Shown: in pieces, positions 16,790 to 24,779 of the stretch
Layout: every line of letters begins with the position of its first letter
How positions within the stretch are numbered: the stretch's first letter is position 1
Source of the DNA: Escherichia phage 121Q
Length of the DNA stretch: 64,000 nt
Sequence record: NC_025447.1
Reading direction: 5' to 3' (one strand)
Notes under the pieces: model-generated
Database searches by the model: none
Told to the model about the DNA's origin: nothing
What the model saw: only the letters and a program-made list of their open reading frames with translations
Position numbers and translations under genes: made by a program

Positions 16790-17604
16790 GAATTTTAAAT
16801 ATGCTTAAATCTCTTCACGAAACAACCAAATTACATCAGGATGAAAAGTATCGTCGCAGCCTTACTAAAGATTTAGCATGTCGTATGTATATGCGTAGAT
16901 TTGAAATTTCAAGAATTGGTAAAGGCTGGGATGATGTAAATCGTGAAGACATTGATCCAGATGCAATTTTTAAAGCATACATGGCTAGAAAAGTTTTCAT
17001 AAATGAAAAAACTTTTTATATTGATAGTGATAGAGAATTAGAAAATAAATTTACAAAAGGTTTATGGAAGATATGGTGTGTTGAAGTATTCGGTGAAGTA
17101 TTACCTGAGCCACCTGTTCCAGAAACTTATAAAGATTTAAAAAGTATTTTTGATAATGAACATATACATTCAAATTTCTCATTATATGATACTGTGTCAG
17201 AAGCTGTATTTTATGGTGAGTTACATGGTCATAACAAATACTTTGATAGTATGGTTAGTTTTGATTTGTTTTGTCACTTGCCTGGTGTATCAAGTTGGAC
17301 ATGTGACCAACACAGAGCAAGTAAGATTGATAAGCGAAAATTCTCGGCCCAAAGATTTATGCAAGTTGCTATGAGTATGTATAAACTTGATTATCTTGGT
17401 TGTCCAGAACCATATAAACATTTTTGGAAAGAAAGAGCACAAAAATGTTTAAACTATTGTATAATCCGTTTAATGGACACATACATTCTTAAGTTTAGAA
17501 ATGCAACTGTATACGACATGCCTGAACCACCAAAGAATGAAAAATATCCACCTGTCAAGACATTTGTATGGTACAAGGATAAAAGTAACAAAAGGATGCA
17601 CTAA
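16786..17604 (+). CDS. hypothetical protein
   Basis: 272-aa ORF, ATGA overlap. Confidence 0.55.
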   Translation: MRILNMLKSLHETTKLHQDEKYRRSLTKDLACRMYMRRFEISRIGKGWDDVNREDIDPDAIFKAYMARKVFINEKTFYIDSDRELENKFTKGLWKIWCVEVFGEVLPEPPVPETYKDLKSIFDNEHIHSNFSLYDTVSEAVFYGELHGHNKYFDSMVSFDLFCHLPGVSSWTCDQHRASKIDKRKFSAQRFMQVAMSMYKLDYLGCPEPYKHFWKERAQKCLNYCIIRLMDTYILKFRNATVYDMPEPPKNEKYPPVKTFVWYKDKSNKRMH

Positions 17605-17620
17605 GGTGCGTCCTTTTTTT
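17593..17620 (+). terminator. intrinsic terminator
   Basis: GGATGCAC..GTGCGTCC hairpin followed by T7 run. Confidence 0.55.
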
Positions 17621-17631
17621 CTTTTCAGGTG

Positions 17632-17660
17632 TTGACATGTGTAGTCGAAGTATGTACAAT
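17632..17660 (+). promoter_or_regulatory. sigma70-type early promoter
   Basis: TTGACA, 17-nt spacer, TACAAT. Confidence 0.55.
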
Positions 17661-17701
17661 ATCACCATCGCGTAAATTTTAATTGATTATGAGGTTTTAT
17701 A

Positions 17702-18829
17702 ATGAAAGGTAAATATTTTTTCATTGAAAATGGCAAAGAAGTTGAGATTCAAGAATTTAACTATAATTATGTACTGAACTCTTTATTGAAACAATATGAC
17801 CGTTCATCAAACAAAAAATACATTTATAATGTAATTGTTCGCCGCACCTATGACTCATTGGGTAATCCGTTATTTGATGTAAAAACTCTGTCATTAGATG
17901 AAATCTATTTTGATAATAAACGTCTGAAAGTTCTTGATTTAATGAAGGATAAAATTCATTTTAGTAATATTAGAATTGATCCTAACATGCCAGTACCGCC
18001 ATTAGAGCGTGAATATCGTGAATGGAAAGAAGGTCGTGCCAAACCACGTTTAGACTTGGTACAAACATCACCAGATGTACCTGCACCTATTGTTCTTAAG
18101 AAAAAACCTATCAACCCAGACGATAGCAGAATTGATGACATTGAAAGATGGGTTGAATTCCCTAGTACTATTGAAAAGAATTCAGTAAAAGTACTAGACT
18201 GGTTTGTAAACTTACCAGTTTGTGCACAAGAAATTGGAACTAAGATTCAACAAATTTCAGAACGTCAATTGGATCTTAACTCAGCATTACAACAGCATAG
18301 TGATTATATTAGAATGCTTATGAATAACCTTACTGTTGCGTTGGAAACGTTGTTCCCATTGAAGCCGACCTTTACACAGAAATTGTTTGGTAAAACTGAT
18401 ATCAAAGTGCAACCATCAGATTTGCCAAAAGTGATGAAAGCACTAAATGAAGCAGTTAAATATGACACTAATAAGTTTAGTGGTCTTAGTACGATGTTTT
18501 CAGAACTTAGAAACGAAGTTAATGAAATCAAAAATGAACTTGAATATGGTAAGTTGGGTTGTGAATACGCACTACGTTGTGTGGATGATGCGTTTGAATA
18601 TGAATTAACATTAGAACGTATTATGAAAATGGGAATCACCACCTCCATGACTGAAACGAGCATTATTGCAACAAGTAAGCAATATCAAGTTGATATGAAT
18701 CGTATGGTAGATATTCAAACTATTACTATTCCTTTGATTATCAATCGTTTACAATCACAGACAGGTAAAGCCGTAGATGAGAGTACTGTAGAGATTATTC
18801 GTAATCTGGCATATGGTAACAAAGAGTAA
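17702..18829 (+). CDS. hypothetical protein
   Basis: 375-aa ORF. Confidence 0.6.
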   Translation: MKGKYFFIENGKEVEIQEFNYNYVLNSLLKQYDRSSNKKYIYNVIVRRTYDSLGNPLFDVKTLSLDEIYFDNKRLKVLDLMKDKIHFSNIRIDPNMPVPPLEREYREWKEGRAKPRLDLVQTSPDVPAPIVLKKKPINPDDSRIDDIERWVEFPSTIEKNSVKVLDWFVNLPVCAQEIGTKIQQISERQLDLNSALQQHSDYIRMLMNNLTVALETLFPLKPTFTQKLFGKTDIKVQPSDLPKVMKALNEAVKYDTNKFSGLSTMFSELRNEVNEIKNELEYGKLGCEYALRCVDDAFEYELTLERIMKMGITTSMTETSIIATSKQYQVDMNRMVDIQTITIPLIINRLQSQTGKAVDESTVEIIRNLAYGNKE

Positions 18830-18837
18830 AAAAATAC

Positions 18838-18866
18838 TTGACTATCATACGTGCTGCCCGTATAAT
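18838..18866 (+). promoter_or_regulatory. sigma70-type early promoter
   Basis: TTGACT, 17-nt spacer, TATAAT. Confidence 0.6.
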
Positions 18867-18914
18867 GTTTATCACAGAGCAGCACATCATATTAAATTAA
18901 ACGAGGAATACTAA

Positions 18915-20051
18915 ATGTCCGAGAAAGAAATCAATCCTAAAAAAGCATCCACCGCAGCTAAATCAGCAAAACGTACTACTAAAACTGCGACTAAAGGTCA
19001 TACAATTGATGCAAGTGATATTTTTAACCAAACTACAAAATCACTACCAGTACTGAAAGATGTTAAGGGAAATACTATGTCTCTAACAGTTCAAAACATC
19101 AATACTGTTGGTACAACTGCTGGTGCTGCTGTTGGGCGTTTGGCTGATGAAATTATGTCTAAAGTTAATGTAACGGATGACAATACCGAGTTTGGTAAAT
19201 CAATCACCACAATTCTTACGTTGACTCGTGCAGTTGATATTGATAGTCTTCAAGAAGATAAATCAATTGTTGGTCGTATTAAGAAATTCTTTGTTAATGC
19301 TCAACAGAAAGTAGGTGATCAGTACAAAAACAGTAAAGAGCAAATTGACGAAATTATGAAAACTCTTCAAACTGGTATTAATCGCCAGCACGGAGAATGT
19401 GAATGGCTTGATAAAGCATATAATGAAAACAAAGAATATTTGTTTGAATTGCGTGATACATTAGTTGGTTTAGAAGAAGTGACTAAAACACAAGATGCAT
19501 TATTAGTAGAAATGCAAGCAGACAAAAATGTAGACTCTTTTGCTATTCAAGAGCAAAAGATGATTTGTGAAGCACTTTCTAAACAAGAAGATAAGATTCG
19601 TCGTCTTATCATGATGTGCGAGCTAAGTGGTCCACGTTTGATGAGTATGAAAAAAGTAAACTTAAACACTGTTTCTAAGTTTGAAGATTTAAAATCTGTT
19701 GTTATTCCAGCATGGAAGTCTCAATTGGCTGAACAGTTAATTTCCGAGCGTCAACGTAAGGATAATGAACTAGGCAATCTGATTGATAATGAGACAAACC
19801 GTCTTTTGGAAACTAACTCTAAAATGGTTGCAGCAAATATGTTGGACGCAGCAAAGGCAAACAACCGTGGTATTGTGGATATTAAAACCTTGCGTAATGT
19901 ACATAAAACGATGATTGACAGTATTGAAGCAGTTATTGAAGAAGAGAAAAAAGGTAAATTGGAACGTGAACGTGCTAAACAGGAAATTGCACAACTTTCC
20001 TATGAACTGGAAGACACTCTTCGTGAAATTGCCGAAAAAGCTAACAAGTAA
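18915..20051 (+). CDS. hypothetical coiled-coil-rich protein
   Basis: 378-aa ORF after strong promoter and RBS. Confidence 0.6.
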   Translation: MSEKEINPKKASTAAKSAKRTTKTATKGHTIDASDIFNQTTKSLPVLKDVKGNTMSLTVQNINTVGTTAGAAVGRLADEIMSKVNVTDDNTEFGKSITTILTLTRAVDIDSLQEDKSIVGRIKKFFVNAQQKVGDQYKNSKEQIDEIMKTLQTGINRQHGECEWLDKAYNENKEYLFELRDTLVGLEEVTKTQDALLVEMQADKNVDSFAIQEQKMICEALSKQEDKIRRLIMMCELSGPRLMSMKKVNLNTVSKFEDLKSVVIPAWKSQLAEQLISERQRKDNELGNLIDNETNRLLETNSKMVAANMLDAAKANNRGIVDIKTLRNVHKTMIDSIEAVIEEEKKGKLERERAKQEIAQLSYELEDTLREIAEKANK

Positions 20052-20054
20052 TAG

Positions 20055-20083
20055 TTGACATATGAGTGCGTTTTTAATATAAT
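20055..20083 (+). promoter_or_regulatory. sigma70-type early promoter, embedded in terminator hairpin
   Basis: TTGACA, 17-nt spacer, TATAAT. Confidence 0.5.
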
Positions 20084-20106
20084 CTTATTGAAAACGCACT
20101 CTTTTT
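20064..20106 (+). terminator. intrinsic terminator
   Basis: GAGTGCGTTTT...AAAACGCACTC long hairpin followed by TTTTT. Confidence 0.5.
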
Positions 20107-20130
20107 AATGTACAGATAAGGAACTAACTT

Positions 20131-20820
20131 ATGAAACGTCGTCATATTAGTGTTGATATTGAAGCTCTTGGAACACCTGAACTTTCCGGTTATGATATTA
20201 TTATCCCAAATTACGCAGCAGTAGTAGTTCCAAGTAAACCTGAAAATGACATTCGTCAGTTCTTATATATTAAATTACCATACCAGGATCAAGTTGCTAC
20301 TGGTTTAAAATCAGACGCAGGTGCAATGGATTTTTGGATGAATACATGTCAGAAAGAATACCCTAATGCATATTCTGAAGTTGCCAGTACTATGAAACTC
20401 AAAGCACCTGAACTGTATGGACCGAATGGTCAATCACGACGATTTTTTGCATACAGTAGTATTGTTGATTTCTGGAAAGAATTACGTTACAATGATTATG
20501 GTGAAGAAGTTCCTCATTCAGTCTGGGGTAATGGATGTAACTTCGATTGTAGTATTTTACAAGCAAACCATTTAAAACTAATGAACGCTGGTGAGTTGTG
20601 GAAGTATGATGCACCTGAAAATGCACGCACATTGAAACGTTTATTGAATGAAGAAGCTCGTATTGAAATGGATGAAATCGTTTCGGTACAGTTGGATAAA
20701 TTTATCACATATGCAAATACGTGTGGGATTAATGGGTTGGAGTTACATCATCCACTATTTGATGCAGCACGTGAAGCAATCCAGATTTCATTCTGTCTAA
20801 ACAAGCTTAAAATGGATTAA
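20131..20820 (+). CDS. dexA: DexA-like 3'-5' exonuclease (DnaQ-like fold)
   Basis: 229 aa; Exo I-like SVDIEALG near N-terminus and HHPLFDA Exo III-like motif near C-terminus. Confidence 0.75.
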   Translation: MKRRHISVDIEALGTPELSGYDIIIPNYAAVVVPSKPENDIRQFLYIKLPYQDQVATGLKSDAGAMDFWMNTCQKEYPNAYSEVASTMKLKAPELYGPNGQSRRFFAYSSIVDFWKELRYNDYGEEVPHSVWGNGCNFDCSILQANHLKLMNAGELWKYDAPENARTLKRLLNEEARIEMDEIVSVQLDKFITYANTCGINGLELHHPLFDAAREAIQISFCLNKLKMD

Positions 20821-20823
20821 TAC

Positions 20824-21918
20824 ATGAATTTCATTATTCTGTTAATACCTGCTCTTATCGTTGTATTCGTTATGAAATACATGTACGATAAGCATATCAG
20901 TACTAAAGAACTATTGATTCATATTGGTTGTTGTCTGGTTGGTGCGGCTCTTGTTCTTGGTATTTCATACGCAATCAACTATAGCCAGCTTTATGATGTT
21001 GAGATTCTGAATGGTCAAGTAACTTCAAAATACAGCCACAAAGAATATTGCACACAATCTAGTTCATGTAAGCACTATACATGGCATGAGAAGTGCCATA
21101 CGCGATATGATAGTAAAGGTAAATCACATCGTGAGTGTGAATCATATAAGGTTTTTGATTACTCATATGAAGTTGATTGGTATGTGAAAAGTACAGTAGG
21201 TGAGTTTGAGATTGAACGTGTGAACCGTCAAGGTACAATGACACCACCACGATGGCAGCAAGTTATGATTGGTGACTATGCCGCAGCAGAGAGTTCATAT
21301 ATCAACTATCTATTTGCTGATAAGAACTCATTGTTTAGTCCTGAAGAACTACACAACATGTATGATGAAAAGTATCTTAGTACTATTCCAGAATACCCAA
21401 GTGTAGTTGATTATTACAAAACACATCACGTAATTAACACTACAAATTACAACGTTGATGGTTACGATGAATACCTTCGTAATGAGCTAAAAACGATGGG
21501 TGCACGTAAGCAGGTAAACATCCAAGTACTAGTATATGATTACAAAGATGTGGATTTTGTTGATGCTACCCTTGCATCGTGGCGTGGTGGTAAGAAGAAT
21601 GATGTTATTATGTTCTTTGGTATTGACAATGATGGTAACGTTGTTAAATTCAACAGTACATCATTTGCACAAGGAATGAAGAATGAAGATTTACATGCAA
21701 AGATGCGTATTGATGCATTAAATGAAAAATTAACTCTTGACTTACTAGTTAAAGAAGTACATAATATTGACGCACAGTTTGAGAGACTCTCTAATAAAGA
21801 GTTTGAGTACTTGTCAGTAAAAATGGAACCTAGAAAAGATGTTCTTATCGGTGCTTCCATTGTTTTGTTGATTCTGTCTATTTTCATTGGCCTTTATATG
21901 AGGGATAACGATTTATGA
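20824..21918 (+). CDS. membrane protein with N- and C-terminal TM segments
   Basis: Hydrophobic N-terminus MNFIILLIPALIVVFV and C-terminal VLIGASIVLLILSIFIGLYM. Confidence 0.6.
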   Translation: MNFIILLIPALIVVFVMKYMYDKHISTKELLIHIGCCLVGAALVLGISYAINYSQLYDVEILNGQVTSKYSHKEYCTQSSSCKHYTWHEKCHTRYDSKGKSHRECESYKVFDYSYEVDWYVKSTVGEFEIERVNRQGTMTPPRWQQVMIGDYAAAESSYINYLFADKNSLFSPEELHNMYDEKYLSTIPEYPSVVDYYKTHHVINTTNYNVDGYDEYLRNELKTMGARKQVNIQVLVYDYKDVDFVDATLASWRGGKKNDVIMFFGIDNDGNVVKFNSTSFAQGMKNEDLHAKMRIDALNEKLTLDLLVKEVHNIDAQFERLSNKEFEYLSVKMEPRKDVLIGASIVLLILSIFIGLYMRDNDL

Positions 21919-22469
21919 ATGGTAAACTCCTTGCGTTAATTGGTATTTTGGTAGTTATCGTACTAATGGTGTTTGGTTCTATTAGTATGTATGTTGGTAC
22001 ACATGATCGTGCAGTTGAGTTTGAAGGAAACATTAAAAAGTACTATGATGCATCTGAAAGTCAACTTAGCAATTATAATCTTACTATTCAAGATAAGGTT
22101 CAAGTAGCAGATAAGTACAAAGATGCGTTGAAAGAAACGATTGAATCATACTTTAAAGGGCGTGAAGGTGTTGACCAGAAGTTTGTAATGTCACAGATTC
22201 AACAACAGGTTCCAAATCTTGATCCTAAAATTTATCAGGAATTGATGGTGACAATTGAAGCAGGACGTACAAAGTTCAACAATCTTCAGAAAATGAAAAT
22301 TGACCAGTGTACTGATTATGCTAAGTTCCGCAAAGGCTTCTGGAATTCCAAAATTCTTGATTCGAATACGTTTCCAAGTGAAAATATTGAACACCTTTGT
22401 ACAGTAGTATCTGATACGCGTACCAAGAAAGCAATGGATACTGGTATTCAAGAATCAATTAAACTATAA
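21915..22469 (+). CDS. LemA-like membrane-anchored protein
   Basis: N-terminal TM helix; C-terminal R..FNN.....N.....YAKFRKGF resembles LemA-family C-terminal pattern. Confidence 0.45.
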   Translation: MNGKLLALIGILVVIVLMVFGSISMYVGTHDRAVEFEGNIKKYYDASESQLSNYNLTIQDKVQVADKYKDALKETIESYFKGREGVDQKFVMSQIQQQVPNLDPKIYQELMVTIEAGRTKFNNLQKMKIDQCTDYAKFRKGFWNSKILDSNTFPSENIEHLCTVVSDTRTKKAMDTGIQESIKL

Positions 22470-22478
22470 TTAAATGTT

Positions 22479-22502
22479 GGGAGTACTTTGTACTCCCCTT
22501 TT
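22479..22502 (+). terminator. intrinsic terminator
   Basis: GGGAGTAC..GTACTCCC hairpin followed by CTTTT. Confidence 0.55.
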
Positions 22503-22504
22503 CT

Positions 22505-23092
22505 ATGGGGTGTACTATGTTTTTAAAAAATACTTATGAATTAATTAAAATGCTTCAAAATATGAATTCAGGTGGATTGTTTCCCTATTACTCTGAGGAT
22601 GAAACTCATCGTTTAGTCCTTAAATTGGATGAAACTGGACGTATTATATCACTAAGAACAACAGTTCCCAGTGTAGAACCAGTAATTACCAAATCGACTC
22701 AAAATTCAGGAACTGCTGTTCAAACACCACAAATGTACACGATTAGCACTCCACCTATTAAACGAGTTGCTTGTATTGTGAATATAAAAGTATCTAAGGA
22801 CTATCGTGACTTAATATCAGTAGAATGGTCAGAACTAACATCATCATTAGCAGGAAATGGATTTGTAGTATCTAATGGATTTGTTACTACAAATCCAAGT
22901 CCAGCACAAAATGTGAAAGAAGGACAACAGATCATGAGTGCATTGTATCTTAGTAATGGTTGTGTTATCATCAATGGTAAGTTGTATAGCGATTCCGACC
23001 CCACAGCATTCACTGAAGATTTGATTGGTGATAAAGAATACAGCATTCTTGAAATTATGAATTTTAAAAAGGTATATGAAAACCATGACTAG
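22505..23092 (+). CDS. hypothetical protein
   Basis: 195-aa ORF. Confidence 0.55.
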   Translation: MGCTMFLKNTYELIKMLQNMNSGGLFPYYSEDETHRLVLKLDETGRIISLRTTVPSVEPVITKSTQNSGTAVQTPQMYTISTPPIKRVACIVNIKVSKDYRDLISVEWSELTSSLAGNGFVVSNGFVTTNPSPAQNVKEGQQIMSALYLSNGCVIINGKLYSDSDPTAFTEDLIGDKEYSILEIMNFKKVYENHD

Positions 23093-23657
23093 ATTTCATC
23101 AAGATGATTTGCCATTTATACAAGAACTAGAAGAACTGGTGATAAGTATTATGGATGAAATTAGTACTTGGGATATAACAGTTTTTCGAAATGTATATGA
23201 TAAAGTGGTGAATTTTAAAAATGTTAATATTGAAGTAAAACATAATAATTTTTACTTAACAAAACAATTCATTCTAACTCGTCCTGGAACAAAGCCAGTT
23301 AAACGTAATTTGTCATTCGGACACCTGGTTGGTGCAGAAAATGTACATGATGAATGGGTTGATTCAATCTATTCGTATACAAAAGCACTTATTCCTGATA
23401 TTGAGAAAAAATATTATCTTAGTATAACATTAGATGAAAACGGAAATCTTAATGCATATTCAATAAATTCTTCTTCAAATGTTCCATTACATTCAGTGAC
23501 GATTGGTGATAAAAAAATGCTAATAAATTCTGAAACATGGTATAATAGAGAAAATTTCGCAGCAGAATCATTTCAGTACTCAGTATCTGAACCAAAGTCA
23601 CCTTTTGATTTAGTGTTTGTTAATAATATTATTTTACGTTTTGGTGTAGGAGTGTAA
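23076..23657 (+). CDS. hypothetical protein
   Basis: 193-aa ORF. Confidence 0.55.
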   Translation: MKTMTRFHQDDLPFIQELEELVISIMDEISTWDITVFRNVYDKVVNFKNVNIEVKHNNFYLTKQFILTRPGTKPVKRNLSFGHLVGAENVHDEWVDSIYSYTKALIPDIEKKYYLSITLDENGNLNAYSINSSSNVPLHSVTIGDKKMLINSETWYNRENFAAESFQYSVSEPKSPFDLVFVNNIILRFGVGV

Positions 23658-23660
23658 TTT

Positions 23661-24014
23661 ATGCTAATTTATTTAAGTGTTATTGTAATTTCGTTACTGG
23701 TATCATTCGCTGTTCTTAAAATTGTTGCTATTTGTAGAAGTAAGATTGATAGTTCTGAAACTAGATCAGTACTTGACTTGATTATGGATCATCCTAAAAT
23801 CTGTGGTATTATTGTATTATTCGTTGTACTGATTAATACATATATTGTCAGGGAACATTTATATAATATGTATGATTGTAGTGTACGTTCTATTTCACAA
23901 GGTGTTGAAACAGACTATAGTTGGTACTATGAGAAATGTCGATTTAAAAACCAGCATGGTATTTGGGTTGATTTTGATAAACTACGTGGAACTCCTTCAG
24001 GAGAAGAAGAATAA
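23661..24014 (+). CDS. hypothetical membrane protein
   Basis: Two predicted hydrophobic helices in N-terminal half. Confidence 0.55.
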   Translation: MLIYLSVIVISLLVSFAVLKIVAICRSKIDSSETRSVLDLIMDHPKICGIIVLFVVLINTYIVREHLYNMYDCSVRSISQGVETDYSWYYEKCRFKNQHGIWVDFDKLRGTPSGEEE

Positions 24015-24016
24015 TT

Positions 24017-24508
24017 ATGTTTGAATTCCCAGAAGAGTCATTTAACTTCATTGACCCTACTGATGATGGATACCGACATATTAACATTTATAGTAAAGCC
24101 AGAACGAAGTTAGGTAGAGATCTATCTAACTTTTCTTCGCACAGCTTCAAACTTGAACCATATGGATGGTTCCCATCAGTTGAAACATTTTACTTTTGGT
24201 TTTTAACTGGTCAAAAACATGATGACCTTAGAAAAGTATCTGGGGCAGCAGCAAAGGCCGCCGCTAACAAATATATGCATGATCGAATTGAAATGACAGA
24301 TGATTGTATCTCAATAATCCAAGATGCTATTTGTGCTAAGATAATTCAAAATCCAGAGTTAGCCGAAAGATTAAGAAAAAGTAAATTGCCTTTTTACCAT
24401 TACTATGTATATGGTGGTAAAGTTGTAGATGTATCCGACGAACATGATTGGTTTGTTAAAACATTCGAATATATAAGAACGGTGTTAAAGGAAAACTATA
24501 ATGGGTAA
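24017..24508 (+). CDS. hypothetical protein
   Basis: 163-aa ORF. Confidence 0.55.
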   Translation: MFEFPEESFNFIDPTDDGYRHINIYSKARTKLGRDLSNFSSHSFKLEPYGWFPSVETFYFWFLTGQKHDDLRKVSGAAAKAAANKYMHDRIEMTDDCISIIQDAICAKIIQNPELAERLRKSKLPFYHYYVYGGKVVDVSDEHDWFVKTFEYIRTVLKENYNG

Positions 24509-24779
24509 ATGTTGGGTATGTGTCAAGGTGTTTGATGAAGAATATGAAATAATATTAGATGTATTACCACAGCAGTACATGGTGTGTAATGAAAAATACA
24601 AATTGGACACCTACCCGACCCCCATGTACATGGGAATATGTCCTTTGTGTGATTCAAATGGTGTGTCCAATAGTGAGATTTCATTCACTAACCAAGCCAC
24701 AACTAACTGTGTATCTGGGTATATAAGAGAGAATCGAGAATATTTTATTAGGAGATTATATGAACGACAAAATCTTTGA
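24501..24779 (+). CDS. hypothetical Cys-rich small protein
   Basis: CWVC ... CPLC pairs suggest a zinc ribbon. Confidence 0.5.
   Translation: MGKCWVCVKVFDEEYEIILDVLPQQYMVCNEKYKLDTYPTPMYMGICPLCDSNGVSNSEISFTNQATTNCVSGYIRENREYFIRRLYERQNL

What the first reader, a model, noticed from the sequence alone, without database searches (positions are those of the whole stretch)
20824..22469. LemA-like protein paired with a bitopic membrane protein
A 364-aa protein with TM helices at both termini is followed, with ATGA overlap, by a 184-aa protein with an N-terminal TM helix and LemA-like C-terminal pattern. LemA family genes are often paired with a membrane-associated partner in bacteria; such a pair in a phage accessory region may act at the host envelope.
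Basis: inference. Interest (0 to 1): 0.35.

Follow-up and report, generated by a model that had tools for sequence, protein, structure and literature searches.

The report
Phage LemA-like and TPM-like membrane pair
Two overlapping genes of a jumbo E. coli phage encode diverged copies of the bacterial LemA and TPM membrane proteins, a pair of unknown function that is conserved in about 480 large phages and probably acts on the periplasmic side of the host inner membrane.

Summary
Both ORFs are real and lie at the stated coordinates: 20824-21918 (364 aa) and 21915-22469 (184 aa), with an ATGA overlap. The window is an Asteriusvirus jumbo coliphage similar to PBECO4 and phAPEC6.

The 184-aa protein has no Pfam LemA hit on its own. 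Its family profile does match LemA: hhalign 96.6%, E 6e-10; PDB LemA 2ETD is the top hit at E 4e-6; 13 of 80 relatives hit PF04011.

The locus is therefore a phage version of the bacterial LemA-TPM gene pair. Both globular domains are predicted to face the periplasm.

The two genes are adjacent and in the same order in about 480 sequenced large virulent phages of Gram-negative hosts. They are nearly absent from cellular genomes. In the window they form an early-type sigma-70 operon with an exonuclease gene.

The function is unknown. My best guess is a module that assembles or maintains complexes at the inner membrane. The database label "virion structural protein" is probably wrong. This is a new variant of a known but uncharacterised kind, of moderate interest.

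The parts
20055..20083 (+). sigma-70-type promoter-like site (TTGACA-17 nt-TATAAT, 12/12) upstream of the three-gene unit
   Evidence: both hexamers conserved in phages ph0011, phAPEC6 and JP4. Function inferred, not shown.
20064..20101 (+). terminator-like hairpin after the TelA gene, overlapping the promoter-like site
   Evidence: 16-pair stem followed by a T run; conserved
20131..20820 (+). Rv2179c-like 3'-5' exonuclease gene, first gene of the unit; it ends 3 nt before the next start codon
   Evidence: Pfam PF16473 E 1.5e-8; PHROG 255 exonuclease E 5e-33; spacing. The linkage is seen only in the Asteriusvirus lineage.
20824..21918 (+). 364-aa three-TM membrane protein with a periplasmic Cys-rich beta domain and a TPM-fold domain (PHROG 2087)
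20827..20985 (+). N-terminal TM hairpin (helices at residues 2-20 and 27-54) with a short K/R-rich cytoplasmic loop
   Evidence: K+R counts across the family
20992..21303 (+). Cys-rich beta domain (residues 57-160), with no match to any solved structure or Pfam family
   Evidence: strands in the model; conserved Cys76, Cys82, Cys91 and Cys105; no specific hits
21430..21783 (+). TPM-fold alpha/beta domain (residues ~203-320) with the W-x-G-G-K-K-N-D motif
21835..21906 (+). C-terminal TM helix (residues 338-361) followed by a short cytoplasmic tail
21915..22469 (+). 184-aa LemA-like protein (PHROG 1383) with an N-terminal TM anchor (residues 5-23); start overlaps the upstream stop (ATGA)
21990..22397 (+). 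LemA-homologous helical domain (residues ~26-161)
   Evidence: hhalign aligned range 26-161 against LemA 17-172; 2ETD residues 9-156
22479..22497 (+). terminator-like hairpin 10 nt after the LemA-like gene
   Evidence: stem invariant and loop variable in relatives

Best explanation
The locus is a phage-borne, strongly diverged version of the bacterial LemA-TPM membrane gene pair. The 364-aa protein inserts in the inner membrane with a two-helix N-terminal hairpin and a C-terminal helix. It displays a Cys-rich beta domain and a TPM-fold domain in the periplasm. The 184-aa protein is anchored by one N-terminal helix (N-terminus inside) and displays a LemA-type helical domain in the periplasm. 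The two genes are translationally coupled and almost certainly work together as a complex (inferred). In this phage they are transcribed with an exonuclease gene from a consensus sigma-70 promoter, which points to early expression by host RNA polymerase (inferred). Most likely function (inferred by analogy, not shown): a non-enzymatic scaffold or chaperone at the periplasmic face of the inner membrane. It would keep host membrane complexes and envelope integrity working, or assemble a phage-specific membrane complex, during the long infection cycle of large virulent phages. My confidence in the identity and topology is about 0.85. My confidence in the functional reading is about 0.3-0.35.
For: LemA homology. 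hhalign of the family against bona fide LemA gives 93.5% (E 2.3e-7) and 96.6% (E 5.7e-10). Controls score <=17.8 against 51.2. PDB LemA 2ETD is the top hit at E 3.9e-6, colinear over residues 30-160. 13 of 80 relatives hit PF04011.

Topology. K+R residues are enriched in the TM1-2 loop (1.8), the C-terminal tail (3.8) and the N-terminus of the LemA-like protein (1.4). The ectodomain of the larger protein has 4-7 conserved Cys. Cys132 and Cys162 of the LemA-like protein are both present (25 sequences) or both absent (54), with one exception, as expected for a periplasmic disulfide. A natural 553-aa fusion is topologically consistent.

Pairing. The families occur in 482 and 481 phage records. 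All 12 records that appear in both listings have the two genes adjacent and in the same order. Gaps range from -14 to +61 nt in 12 loci from very different phage lineages.

Bacterial parallels. I saw LemA next to TPM proteins in E. coli and Bacteroides. lemA and a TPM gene are co-induced under membrane stress in Flavobacterium (PMC13236525). TPM has been proposed as a chaperone-like factor for membrane complexes (PMC11237479; bioRxiv 10.1101/2025.01.14.632903).

Early operon. A 12/12 sigma-70 promoter and a downstream terminator are conserved in relatives.
Against: The window proteins themselves do not reach any Pfam threshold.

The fold search with the LemA-like model is unspecific: 2ETD ranks 40th and the model has pLDDT 75.7.

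The second TPM signature, GxGLE, is not conserved. The LemA motifs RRxDLIPN and HE are missing.

No experiment bears on function, and even bacterial LemA has no established function.

The promoter is only a consensus match. No comparably strong site lies immediately upstream of the pair in Vi01.

Several database records label the small protein 'virion structural protein'.

The Lak megaphage has a LemA-like gene with no partner nearby.
Confidence: 0.5

Rival explanations
1. Superinfection exclusion or injection block. An early-made inner-membrane complex with periplasmic domains stops DNA entry or cell-wall penetration by secondary phages, like T4 Imm and Sp.
For: The operon looks early, with a consensus sigma-70 promoter. 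Both proteins are inner-membrane proteins with periplasm-facing domains. The family is almost exclusive to phages: only 21 loci in 100,044 species genomes, mostly MAG contigs.
Against: The pair keeps 30-40% identity and many invariant residues across phages with unrelated tails and injection machinery: Ackermannviridae, Straboviridae, Demerecviridae, jumbo phages and ICP1. Exclusion proteins are usually lineage-specific and evolve fast. Both proteins descend from housekeeping-type bacterial families. There is no match to any known exclusion or defence family.
Confidence: 0.15
2. Lysis control. The pair acts as a holin, antiholin or lysis-timing sensor in the inner membrane. The Vi01 homologue of the large protein carries the gene name 'host lysis protein'.
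For: Vi01_203 is labelled 'host lysis protein'. Both are membrane proteins with periplasmic domains, as are T4 holin T and antiholin RI (my own knowledge). One of 32 relatives has a weak LydA-holin hit at E 0.007.
Against: The operon looks early and is not next to an endolysin or spanin gene in any of the loci inspected. The architecture, with TPM and LemA domains, is unlike any holin class. The label in Vi01 comes with no supporting evidence in the record.
Confidence: 0.07
3. Virion component or membrane-bound assembly factor. The small protein is packaged in, or attached to, the particle, as the PHROG 1383 label 'virion structural protein' says.
For: The PHROG 1383 annotation and the labels in the Vi01, RAY, Deimos-Minion, K64-1 and JSF10 records.
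Against: In phAPEC6, whose homologue is 98% identical, the published table of 62 virion proteins found by ESI-MS/MS contains neither gp143 nor gp144. The same preparations carried host-membrane patches, an obvious source of contaminating membrane proteins (PMC7247149). The pair also has an early-type promoter, sits among replication genes, carries TM anchors, and descends from bacterial membrane families.
Confidence: 0.08
4. The LemA and TPM resemblance is spurious, reflecting helical-bundle and Rossmann-like convergence, and the two proteins form an unrelated phage-specific membrane pair.
For: There are no Pfam hits for the window proteins. Foldseek with the LemA-like model returns generic helical bundles. 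hhalign against TPM gives only 43% probability.
Against: Several lines of evidence, not all independent, point to the same two families, and those two families are genomic partners in bacteria. The alignments are colinear and begin right after the TM anchor. Controls score far lower.
Confidence: 0.05

Closest known systems
Bacterial LemA-TPM (YgcG-type) operons, e.g. E. coli KE47 (L011: LemA lipoprotein plus two TPM proteins) and Bacteroides finegoldii (L012: TPM protein then LemA)
   Same: Adjacent genes on the same strand encode a LemA-family protein of about 185-200 aa with an N-terminal anchor and a membrane-anchored TPM-domain protein. The extracytoplasmic orientation is the same: the E. 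coli LemA has a lipobox and its TPM partners have signal peptides. The order TPM then LemA matches Bacteroides.
   Different: The phage proteins fall below Pfam thresholds. The phage TPM protein has an extra N-terminal two-helix hairpin and a Cys-rich beta domain, lacks the Gly-rich C-terminal tail, and lacks the GxGLE motif. The family is essentially restricted to phages. The function of the bacterial pairs is itself unknown.
LemA protein TM0961 of Thermotoga maritima (PDB 2ETD; Pfam PF04011)
   Same: It is the best PDB sequence match of the family profile: E 3.9e-6, colinear over about 130 residues. Shared motifs are E-x-(Y/N)-P-x-L and a C-terminal aromatic-Pro motif.
   Different: Identity is about 13-15%. 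The LemA motifs RRxDLIPN and Y..HE are absent. The phage family has a C-terminal extension, and many members have a Cys pair. The fold comparison is inconclusive.
TPM-domain proteins with solved structures: AtTLP18.3 (3PW9/3PVH), Psb32 (8C7I), BA41/BA42 (5ANP, 2MPB), Rhom172_1776 (7TBR), PG_0361 (2KW7), cg2496 (2KPT), LMTP1 (9H70), and the DUF5130 subunit of the mycobacterial CIII2CIV2 supercomplex (6ADQ_J)
   Different: Sequence identity is 10-14%. The second signature motif is not conserved. Any phosphatase or nucleotidase activity, already disputed for the family, cannot be assumed here.
B. subtilis YdjH (TPM) in the pspA-like ydjFGHL operon
   Same: A membrane-associated TPM protein encoded with envelope-stress components and proposed to act as a chaperone for membrane complexes (PMC11237479). 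This is the functional analogy used here.
   Different: The phage locus has no PspA or band-7 partner. In this phage lineage only, a TelA-family gene lies just upstream in its own transcription unit.
T4 Imm and Sp (superinfection exclusion)
   Same: Early-expressed phage proteins of the inner membrane and periplasm (my own knowledge). This is a functional analogy only.
   Different: No sequence or fold relationship was detected. Those proteins are small and lineage-specific, whereas this pair is conserved across phage families.

Membership tests
LemA family (Pfam PF04011) | Match to the Pfam LemA HMM at or above the gathering score | tested here: not met
   The window protein has no PF04011 hit even at E<=10. 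13 of 80 family members hit PF04011 individually, best E 6.5e-6.
LemA family (Pfam PF04011) | Detectable homology to bona fide LemA proteins by profile methods | tested here: met
   hhalign 93.5% at E 2.3e-7 and 96.6% at E 5.7e-10. Shuffled and reversed controls score <=17.8 against 51.2. Family profile against PDB: 2ETD is top at E 3.9e-6.
LemA family (Pfam PF04011) | Architecture: one N-terminal membrane anchor followed by an all-helical domain of about 150 aa, total about 180-200 aa | tested here: met
   TM at residues 5-23. The model is all-helical. Length is 184 aa, against 186-200 aa for the LemA proteins fetched.
LemA family (Pfam PF04011) | LemA helical-bundle fold as in PDB 2ETD | tested here: inconclusive
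   Foldseek ranks 2ETD 40th (TM 0.44 on the target, prob 0.44) among generic helical bundles. The model has pLDDT 75.7.
LemA family (Pfam PF04011) | Conserved LemA sequence motifs (RRxDLIPN, Y..HE, E.YP.LK, FP near the C-terminus) | tested here: inconclusive
   E-x-x-P-x-L and the C-terminal aromatic-Pro motif align. RRxDLIPN and HE are absent.
LemA family (Pfam PF04011) | Gene neighbourhood with a TPM, DUF2207 or HtpX membrane partner | tested here: met
   The partner has a TPM fold. Bacterial examples were seen here: TPM, DUF2207, HtpX.
TPM domain (Pfam PF04536, formerly DUF477) | Match to the Pfam TPM_phosphatase HMM at or above the gathering score | tested here: not met
   The window protein has no hit. 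7 of 32 relatives hit weakly, best E 0.0019.
TPM domain (Pfam PF04536, formerly DUF477) | TPM alpha/beta fold | tested here: met
TPM domain (Pfam PF04536, formerly DUF477) | First signature loop, W-x-G-x-K-x(2,4)-(D/N)-(D/N/G) | tested here: met
   W253-R-G-G-K-K-N-D260 is invariant or nearly so in 32 relatives. It aligns with WKPGDKDHDDG of YgcG-type proteins (E 2.5e-4 against controls >=0.088).
TPM domain (Pfam PF04536, formerly DUF477) | Second signature, G-x-G-L-E | tested here: not met
   The bacterial proteins have IGYGLEG. The phage family has S-F-A-x-G-x-x-N at the corresponding place.
TPM domain (Pfam PF04536, formerly DUF477) | Phosphatase or nucleotidase activity claimed for some members | not testable with these tools
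   The activity is disputed in the literature.
Virion structural proteins (label of PHROG 1383) | Presence in purified virions | tested here: not met
   Literature check for the closest relative: the phAPEC6 structural proteome table (62 proteins) lists neither gp143 nor gp144 (PMC7247149). The origin of the label in other records could not be traced.
Known anti-phage defence or exclusion families (PADLOC-DB) | HMM match | tested here: not met
   No hit for either protein or for the three upstream proteins.

The most novel reading that the evidence does not exclude
The pair is a dedicated envelope-homeostasis system of large phages. It would be a LemA/TPM complex that, from early in infection, stabilises or rebuilds host inner-membrane complexes (respiratory chain, membrane-protein quality control), or seals the membrane after genome injection, so that the cell stays energised for a long replication cycle. 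It would be comparable to cyanophage psbA supporting photosystem II. If so, tractable phages such as ICP1 or CBA120 would give the first genetic handle on the function of the widespread but uncharacterised bacterial LemA and TPM families.
Probability: 0.25. Interest if true: 0.6.

Novelty: new variant of a known kind. Interest (0 to 1): 0.4.

Why it matters
LemA and TPM are very common bacterial membrane protein families that often sit side by side, and neither has an established function. This work shows that a diverged, architecturally distinct copy of that pair is a conserved two-gene module in roughly 1% of sequenced phage genomes. The carriers include Ackermannviridae, Rak2- and PBECO4-type jumbo phages, Agricanvirus, ICP1, T5-like vibriophages and some T4-like Aeromonas phages. 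The LemA-like family alone has about 1,300 50%-identity clusters in metagenomes.

Three things follow. First, many records call the small protein a "virion structural protein" and the large one "hypothetical"; both annotations need correcting. Second, large virulent phages appear to invest in a periplasm-facing inner-membrane complex made early in infection. Third, phage genetics could be used to uncover what LemA-TPM systems do. The locus is not a new mechanism in itself, and the function remains inferred.

Tried and rejected
- Single-sequence Pfam, NCBIfam and PDB searches of both proteins gave only noise: Spore_III_AF, DUF753, a ParM fusion.
- Foldseek with the LemA-like model was unspecific, returning generic helical bundles.
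- The afdb50 fold library was not available.
- I compared the Cys-rich beta domain with two other LemA partners: DUF2207 (Sulfitobacter) and the 429-aa membrane protein next to Vibrio LemA. Neither showed meaningful similarity (prob 1.1% and 0.1%). No PDB match is specific to this domain.
- I tested whether TelA is part of the conserved module. It is not. TelA adjacency is limited to the Asteriusvirus group, and other lineages have unrelated neighbours: poly(A)-polymerase-like, ADDT, PinA-like, NAD salvage genes.
- I tested whether the 375-aa upstream protein is a TelA paralogue. BLASTP found no similarity.
- PADLOC defence models gave no hits.
- Literature searches for a LemA function, a phage TPM protein, or virion proteomics naming these proteins found no dedicated study.
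- I tried to extend the early-promoter inference to other lineages. ICP1 has an 11/12 sigma-70-like site at the head of the gene cluster that contains the pair. Vi01 has nothing strong. The result is inconclusive.
- A first hhalign against a three-sequence TPM alignment was weak (10%, E 0.003). It improved only to 43%, E 2.5e-4, with 21 TPM sequences. The TPM assignment therefore rests mainly on the fold.

Full report
**Observation**

One is 20824-21918 (+, 364 aa). The other is 21915-22469 (+, 184 aa). The stop of the first gene overlaps the start of the second as ATGA.

Hydropathy gives segments at residues 3-21, 30-48 and 340-358 in the large protein and 5-23 in the small one. The large protein therefore has three predicted TM helices and is not bitopic. 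The AlphaFold model agrees, with helices at 2-20, 27-54 and 338-361.

The window is a jumbo coliphage of the genus Asteriusvirus. Positions 17700-24600 are 97-98% identical to JP4, UB, phAPEC6, PBECO4 and others.

**Is the small protein LemA-like?**

By itself, no. Pfam, NCBIfam and PDB sequence searches give only noise. None of 14 relatives hit PF04011.

At family level, yes.
- A 14-sequence alignment (A1) has the LemA crystal structure 2ETD as its best PDB match (E 0.0097).
- I built a small alignment of genuine LemA proteins from E. coli, Bacteroides, Sulfitobacter, Listeria, Vibrio and Thermotoga. hhalign of A1 against it gives 93.5% probability and E 2.3e-7 over 136 colinear columns that start right after the TM helix.
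- Twenty column-shuffled templates and one reversed template score at most 17.8 against 51.2.
- An exhaustive HMMER search found 1,303 50%-identity clusters of the family. With 80 of them (A6), hhalign rises to 96.6% and E 5.7e-10.
- 2ETD then becomes the top PDB hit at E 3.9e-6, with the next hit at 0.24.
- 13 of 80 members hit Pfam LemA individually, best E 6.5e-6. LemA is by far the most frequently hit family.

Fold comparison is uninformative, because the model has pLDDT 75.7 and Foldseek returns generic helical bundles.

I conclude that the protein is a diverged member of the LemA superfamily lying outside the current Pfam model. It retains the E-x-x-P-x-L and C-terminal aromatic-Pro motifs. 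It lacks RRxDLIPN and HE.

**What is the large protein?**

No Pfam or PDB sequence hit exists for it.

A 32-sequence alignment (A4) gave a very confident model with pLDDT 92.7 and pTM 0.80. Its layout is a TM hairpin, a beta-rich domain (57-160), an alpha/beta domain (about 203-320), two short helices and a C-terminal TM helix.

Sequence evidence is weaker but points the same way.
- 7 of 32 relatives hit PF04536. It is the only family hit by more than one member.
- hhalign against 21 YgcG-type TPM domains gives E 2.5e-4. Controls are >=0.088.
- That alignment places the nearly invariant W-x-G-G-K-K-N-D loop on the W-x-x-G-x-K...D-D-G loop of TPM.
- The second TPM signature (GxGLE) is not kept.

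The beta domain carries 4-7 conserved cysteines and matches nothing I could search.

**Topology (inferred)**

Across the family, K+R residues concentrate in three places: the 7-residue TM1-TM2 loop (mean 1.8), the C-terminal tail (3.8) and the 7-residue N-terminus of the LemA-like protein (1.4, with almost no acidic residues). The N-terminus of the large protein has 0.17. By the positive-inside rule, both globular parts face the periplasm.

Cys132 and Cys162 of the LemA-like protein are present together in 25 sequences, absent together in 54 and unpaired in 1. That is the pattern of a disulfide, which fits an oxidising compartment.

A 553-aa protein from a metagenomic contig fuses both proteins in the order TPM-like, TM, short linker, TM, LemA-like. 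This fusion is only possible if both domains lie on the same side. It is a single observation.

The E. coli LemA I fetched is a lipoprotein and its two TPM partners have signal peptides. The bacterial pair is therefore extracytoplasmic too.

**The pair as a unit**

tblastn finds the small protein in 481 and the large protein in 482 of 50,697 phage records, with the same genus distribution. All 12 records that appear in both printed lists have the two genes adjacent, on the same strand and in the same order.

I inspected 12 loci: ph0011, Vi01, phiAS5, ICP1, RAY, BUDD, JSF10, Aci01-1, FLC9, phiN3, an Achromobacter chromosome and the window. In these, the gap between the genes ranges from -14 to +61 nt.

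Hosts are all Gram-negative and the genomes are all large (>100 kb where complete).

The flanking genes differ between lineages. The conserved unit is therefore just these two genes. The neighbouring TelA gene (Pfam E 1.8e-37) is not part of it.

One exception was seen: the Lak-B4 megaphage has a LemA-like ORF with no partner within 3 kb.

A scan of one genome per 100,044 prokaryotic species found only 21 loci. Nearly all are on MAG contigs, many binned as CPR bacteria and probably phage. One clear chromosomal copy lies next to recA in Achromobacter anxifer.

**Expression context in the window**

A perfect sigma-70 consensus (TTGACA-17-TATAAT) lies at 20055-20083, upstream of the exonuclease gene (20131-20820). 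That gene ends 3 nt before the TPM-like gene. A GC-rich hairpin with a T run follows the LemA-like gene at 22479-22497. Both signals are conserved in ph0011 (86% identity), phAPEC6 and JP4. The terminator loop varies while the stem is kept.

The surrounding genes are replication-type: topoisomerase II, clamp loader. I infer an early three-gene operon read by host RNA polymerase. This is a consensus-based inference.

**The 'virion structural protein' label**

PHROG 1383 and several records carry this label. For phAPEC6, whose homologue is 98% identical, the published ESI-MS/MS table of 62 virion proteins mentions neither gp143 nor gp144. The same paper notes pieces of host membrane stuck to particles (PMC7247149).

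The proteins also have TM anchors, the operon looks early, and both families are of bacterial origin. I therefore regard the label as probably a carry-over from membrane contamination. I could not trace its origin.

**Mechanism**

Shown by computation: homology to LemA, a TPM fold, tight gene coupling, and restriction to phages.

Inferred: periplasmic orientation, complex formation and early expression.

By analogy only: the function. TPM proteins are found on the extracytoplasmic side of energy-transducing membranes as repair, assembly or auxiliary factors (TLP18.3 and Psb32, a supercomplex subunit). Comparative genomics has proposed a chaperone-like role in assembling membrane-linked complexes rather than phosphatase activity (PMC11237479; bioRxiv 10.1101/2025.01.14.632903).

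Bacterial lemA sits next to TPM, DUF2207 or htpX genes. lemA and a TPM gene rise together when signal-peptide clearance fails in Flavobacterium (PMC13236525).

I therefore favour a phage-encoded scaffold or chaperone at the periplasmic face of the inner membrane. It would preserve envelope and membrane-complex function, or build a phage-specific membrane complex, during infection. My confidence in that function is about one in three. The rivals are superinfection exclusion (0.15), lysis control (0.07) and a virion or assembly role (0.08).

**Novelty and verdict**

A few GenBank records already call the small protein 'LEMA protein' (Serratia phage BF, ph0011, Turkey3). The LemA idea is therefore not new.

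I found three things in no record or paper. The first is the TPM assignment of the partner, which is labelled hypothetical in every annotated record I looked at. The second is its unusual architecture. The third is the recognition that the two form a conserved, phage-restricted LemA-TPM module.

This is a new variant of a known but functionally uncharacterised kind. It is useful for annotation and is a reasonable experimental target, but not a surprising new mechanism. Interest 0.4.

Noticed in passing
window 18915-20051 (+), promoter-like site 18838-18866: A TelA-family (toxic anion resistance) gene lies in its own transcription unit with an 11/12 sigma-70-like promoter (Pfam E 1.8e-37). It is adjacent to the pair only in Asteriusvirus-type phages.
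   Followed up: partly
window 17702-18829 (+), promoter-like 17632-17660, terminator-like 17590-17617: A 375-aa protein of unknown function (PHROG 13312) is labelled 'S-layer domain-containing' in phAPEC6. It has no Pfam hit and no BLASTP similarity to the TelA protein next to it.
   Followed up: partly
window 20055-20101: A perfect sigma-70 consensus promoter is embedded in the stem-loop of the terminator-like hairpin that follows the TelA gene, with the -10 hexamer in the loop region. The arrangement is conserved in relatives, including one with a 4-nt insertion.
   Followed up: partly
L023 3956-5687 (Achromobacter anxifer LMG 26857, contig NZ_CAHLAR010000005.1): A bacterial chromosome carries the phage-type pair (PHROG 2087 at E 1.5e-108, PHROG 1383 at E 1.1e-58) immediately downstream of recA. 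The flanking genes have no phage hits. This may be a rare capture of the module by a cell.
   Followed up: partly
L039 2839-3378 (Prevotella phage Lak-B4): The megaphage has a solo LemA-like ORF (179 aa) downstream of a ClpX-like gene, with no TPM-like partner within 3 kb. Lak phages use an alternative genetic code, so nearby ORF calls made with table 11 may be broken.
   Followed up: no
P0249 / L017 1012-2673 (JGI metagenome contig Ga0181608_113487): A single 553-aa ORF fuses the TPM-like and LemA-like proteins. There is one contig from one sample, so an assembly or sequencing artefact cannot be excluded.
   Followed up: partly
window 21049-21168 (residues 76-115 of the 364-aa protein): Most relatives carry a C-x-H-S-Y-x-C-N-C ... 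C-x-T-C-Y-E-H motif with 5 or 7 Cys in the ectodomain. This may bind a metal. The Asteriusvirus version has lost the CxxCYEH part and keeps 4 Cys.
   Followed up: partly
window 23661-24508 (+): Two downstream genes were not examined further. The 117-aa membrane protein is annotated 'WWE domain-containing' in ph0011. The 163-aa protein (PHROG 652) appears to correspond to the 'NADAR domain-containing protein' listed for phage Turkey3.
   Followed up: no
L007 and L008 (Xanthomonas phage BUDD, Vibrio phage JSF10): In these phages the pair sits among NAD+ salvage and synthesis genes: nicotinamide phosphoribosyltransferase, NMN adenylyltransferase and NAD synthase.
   Followed up: no
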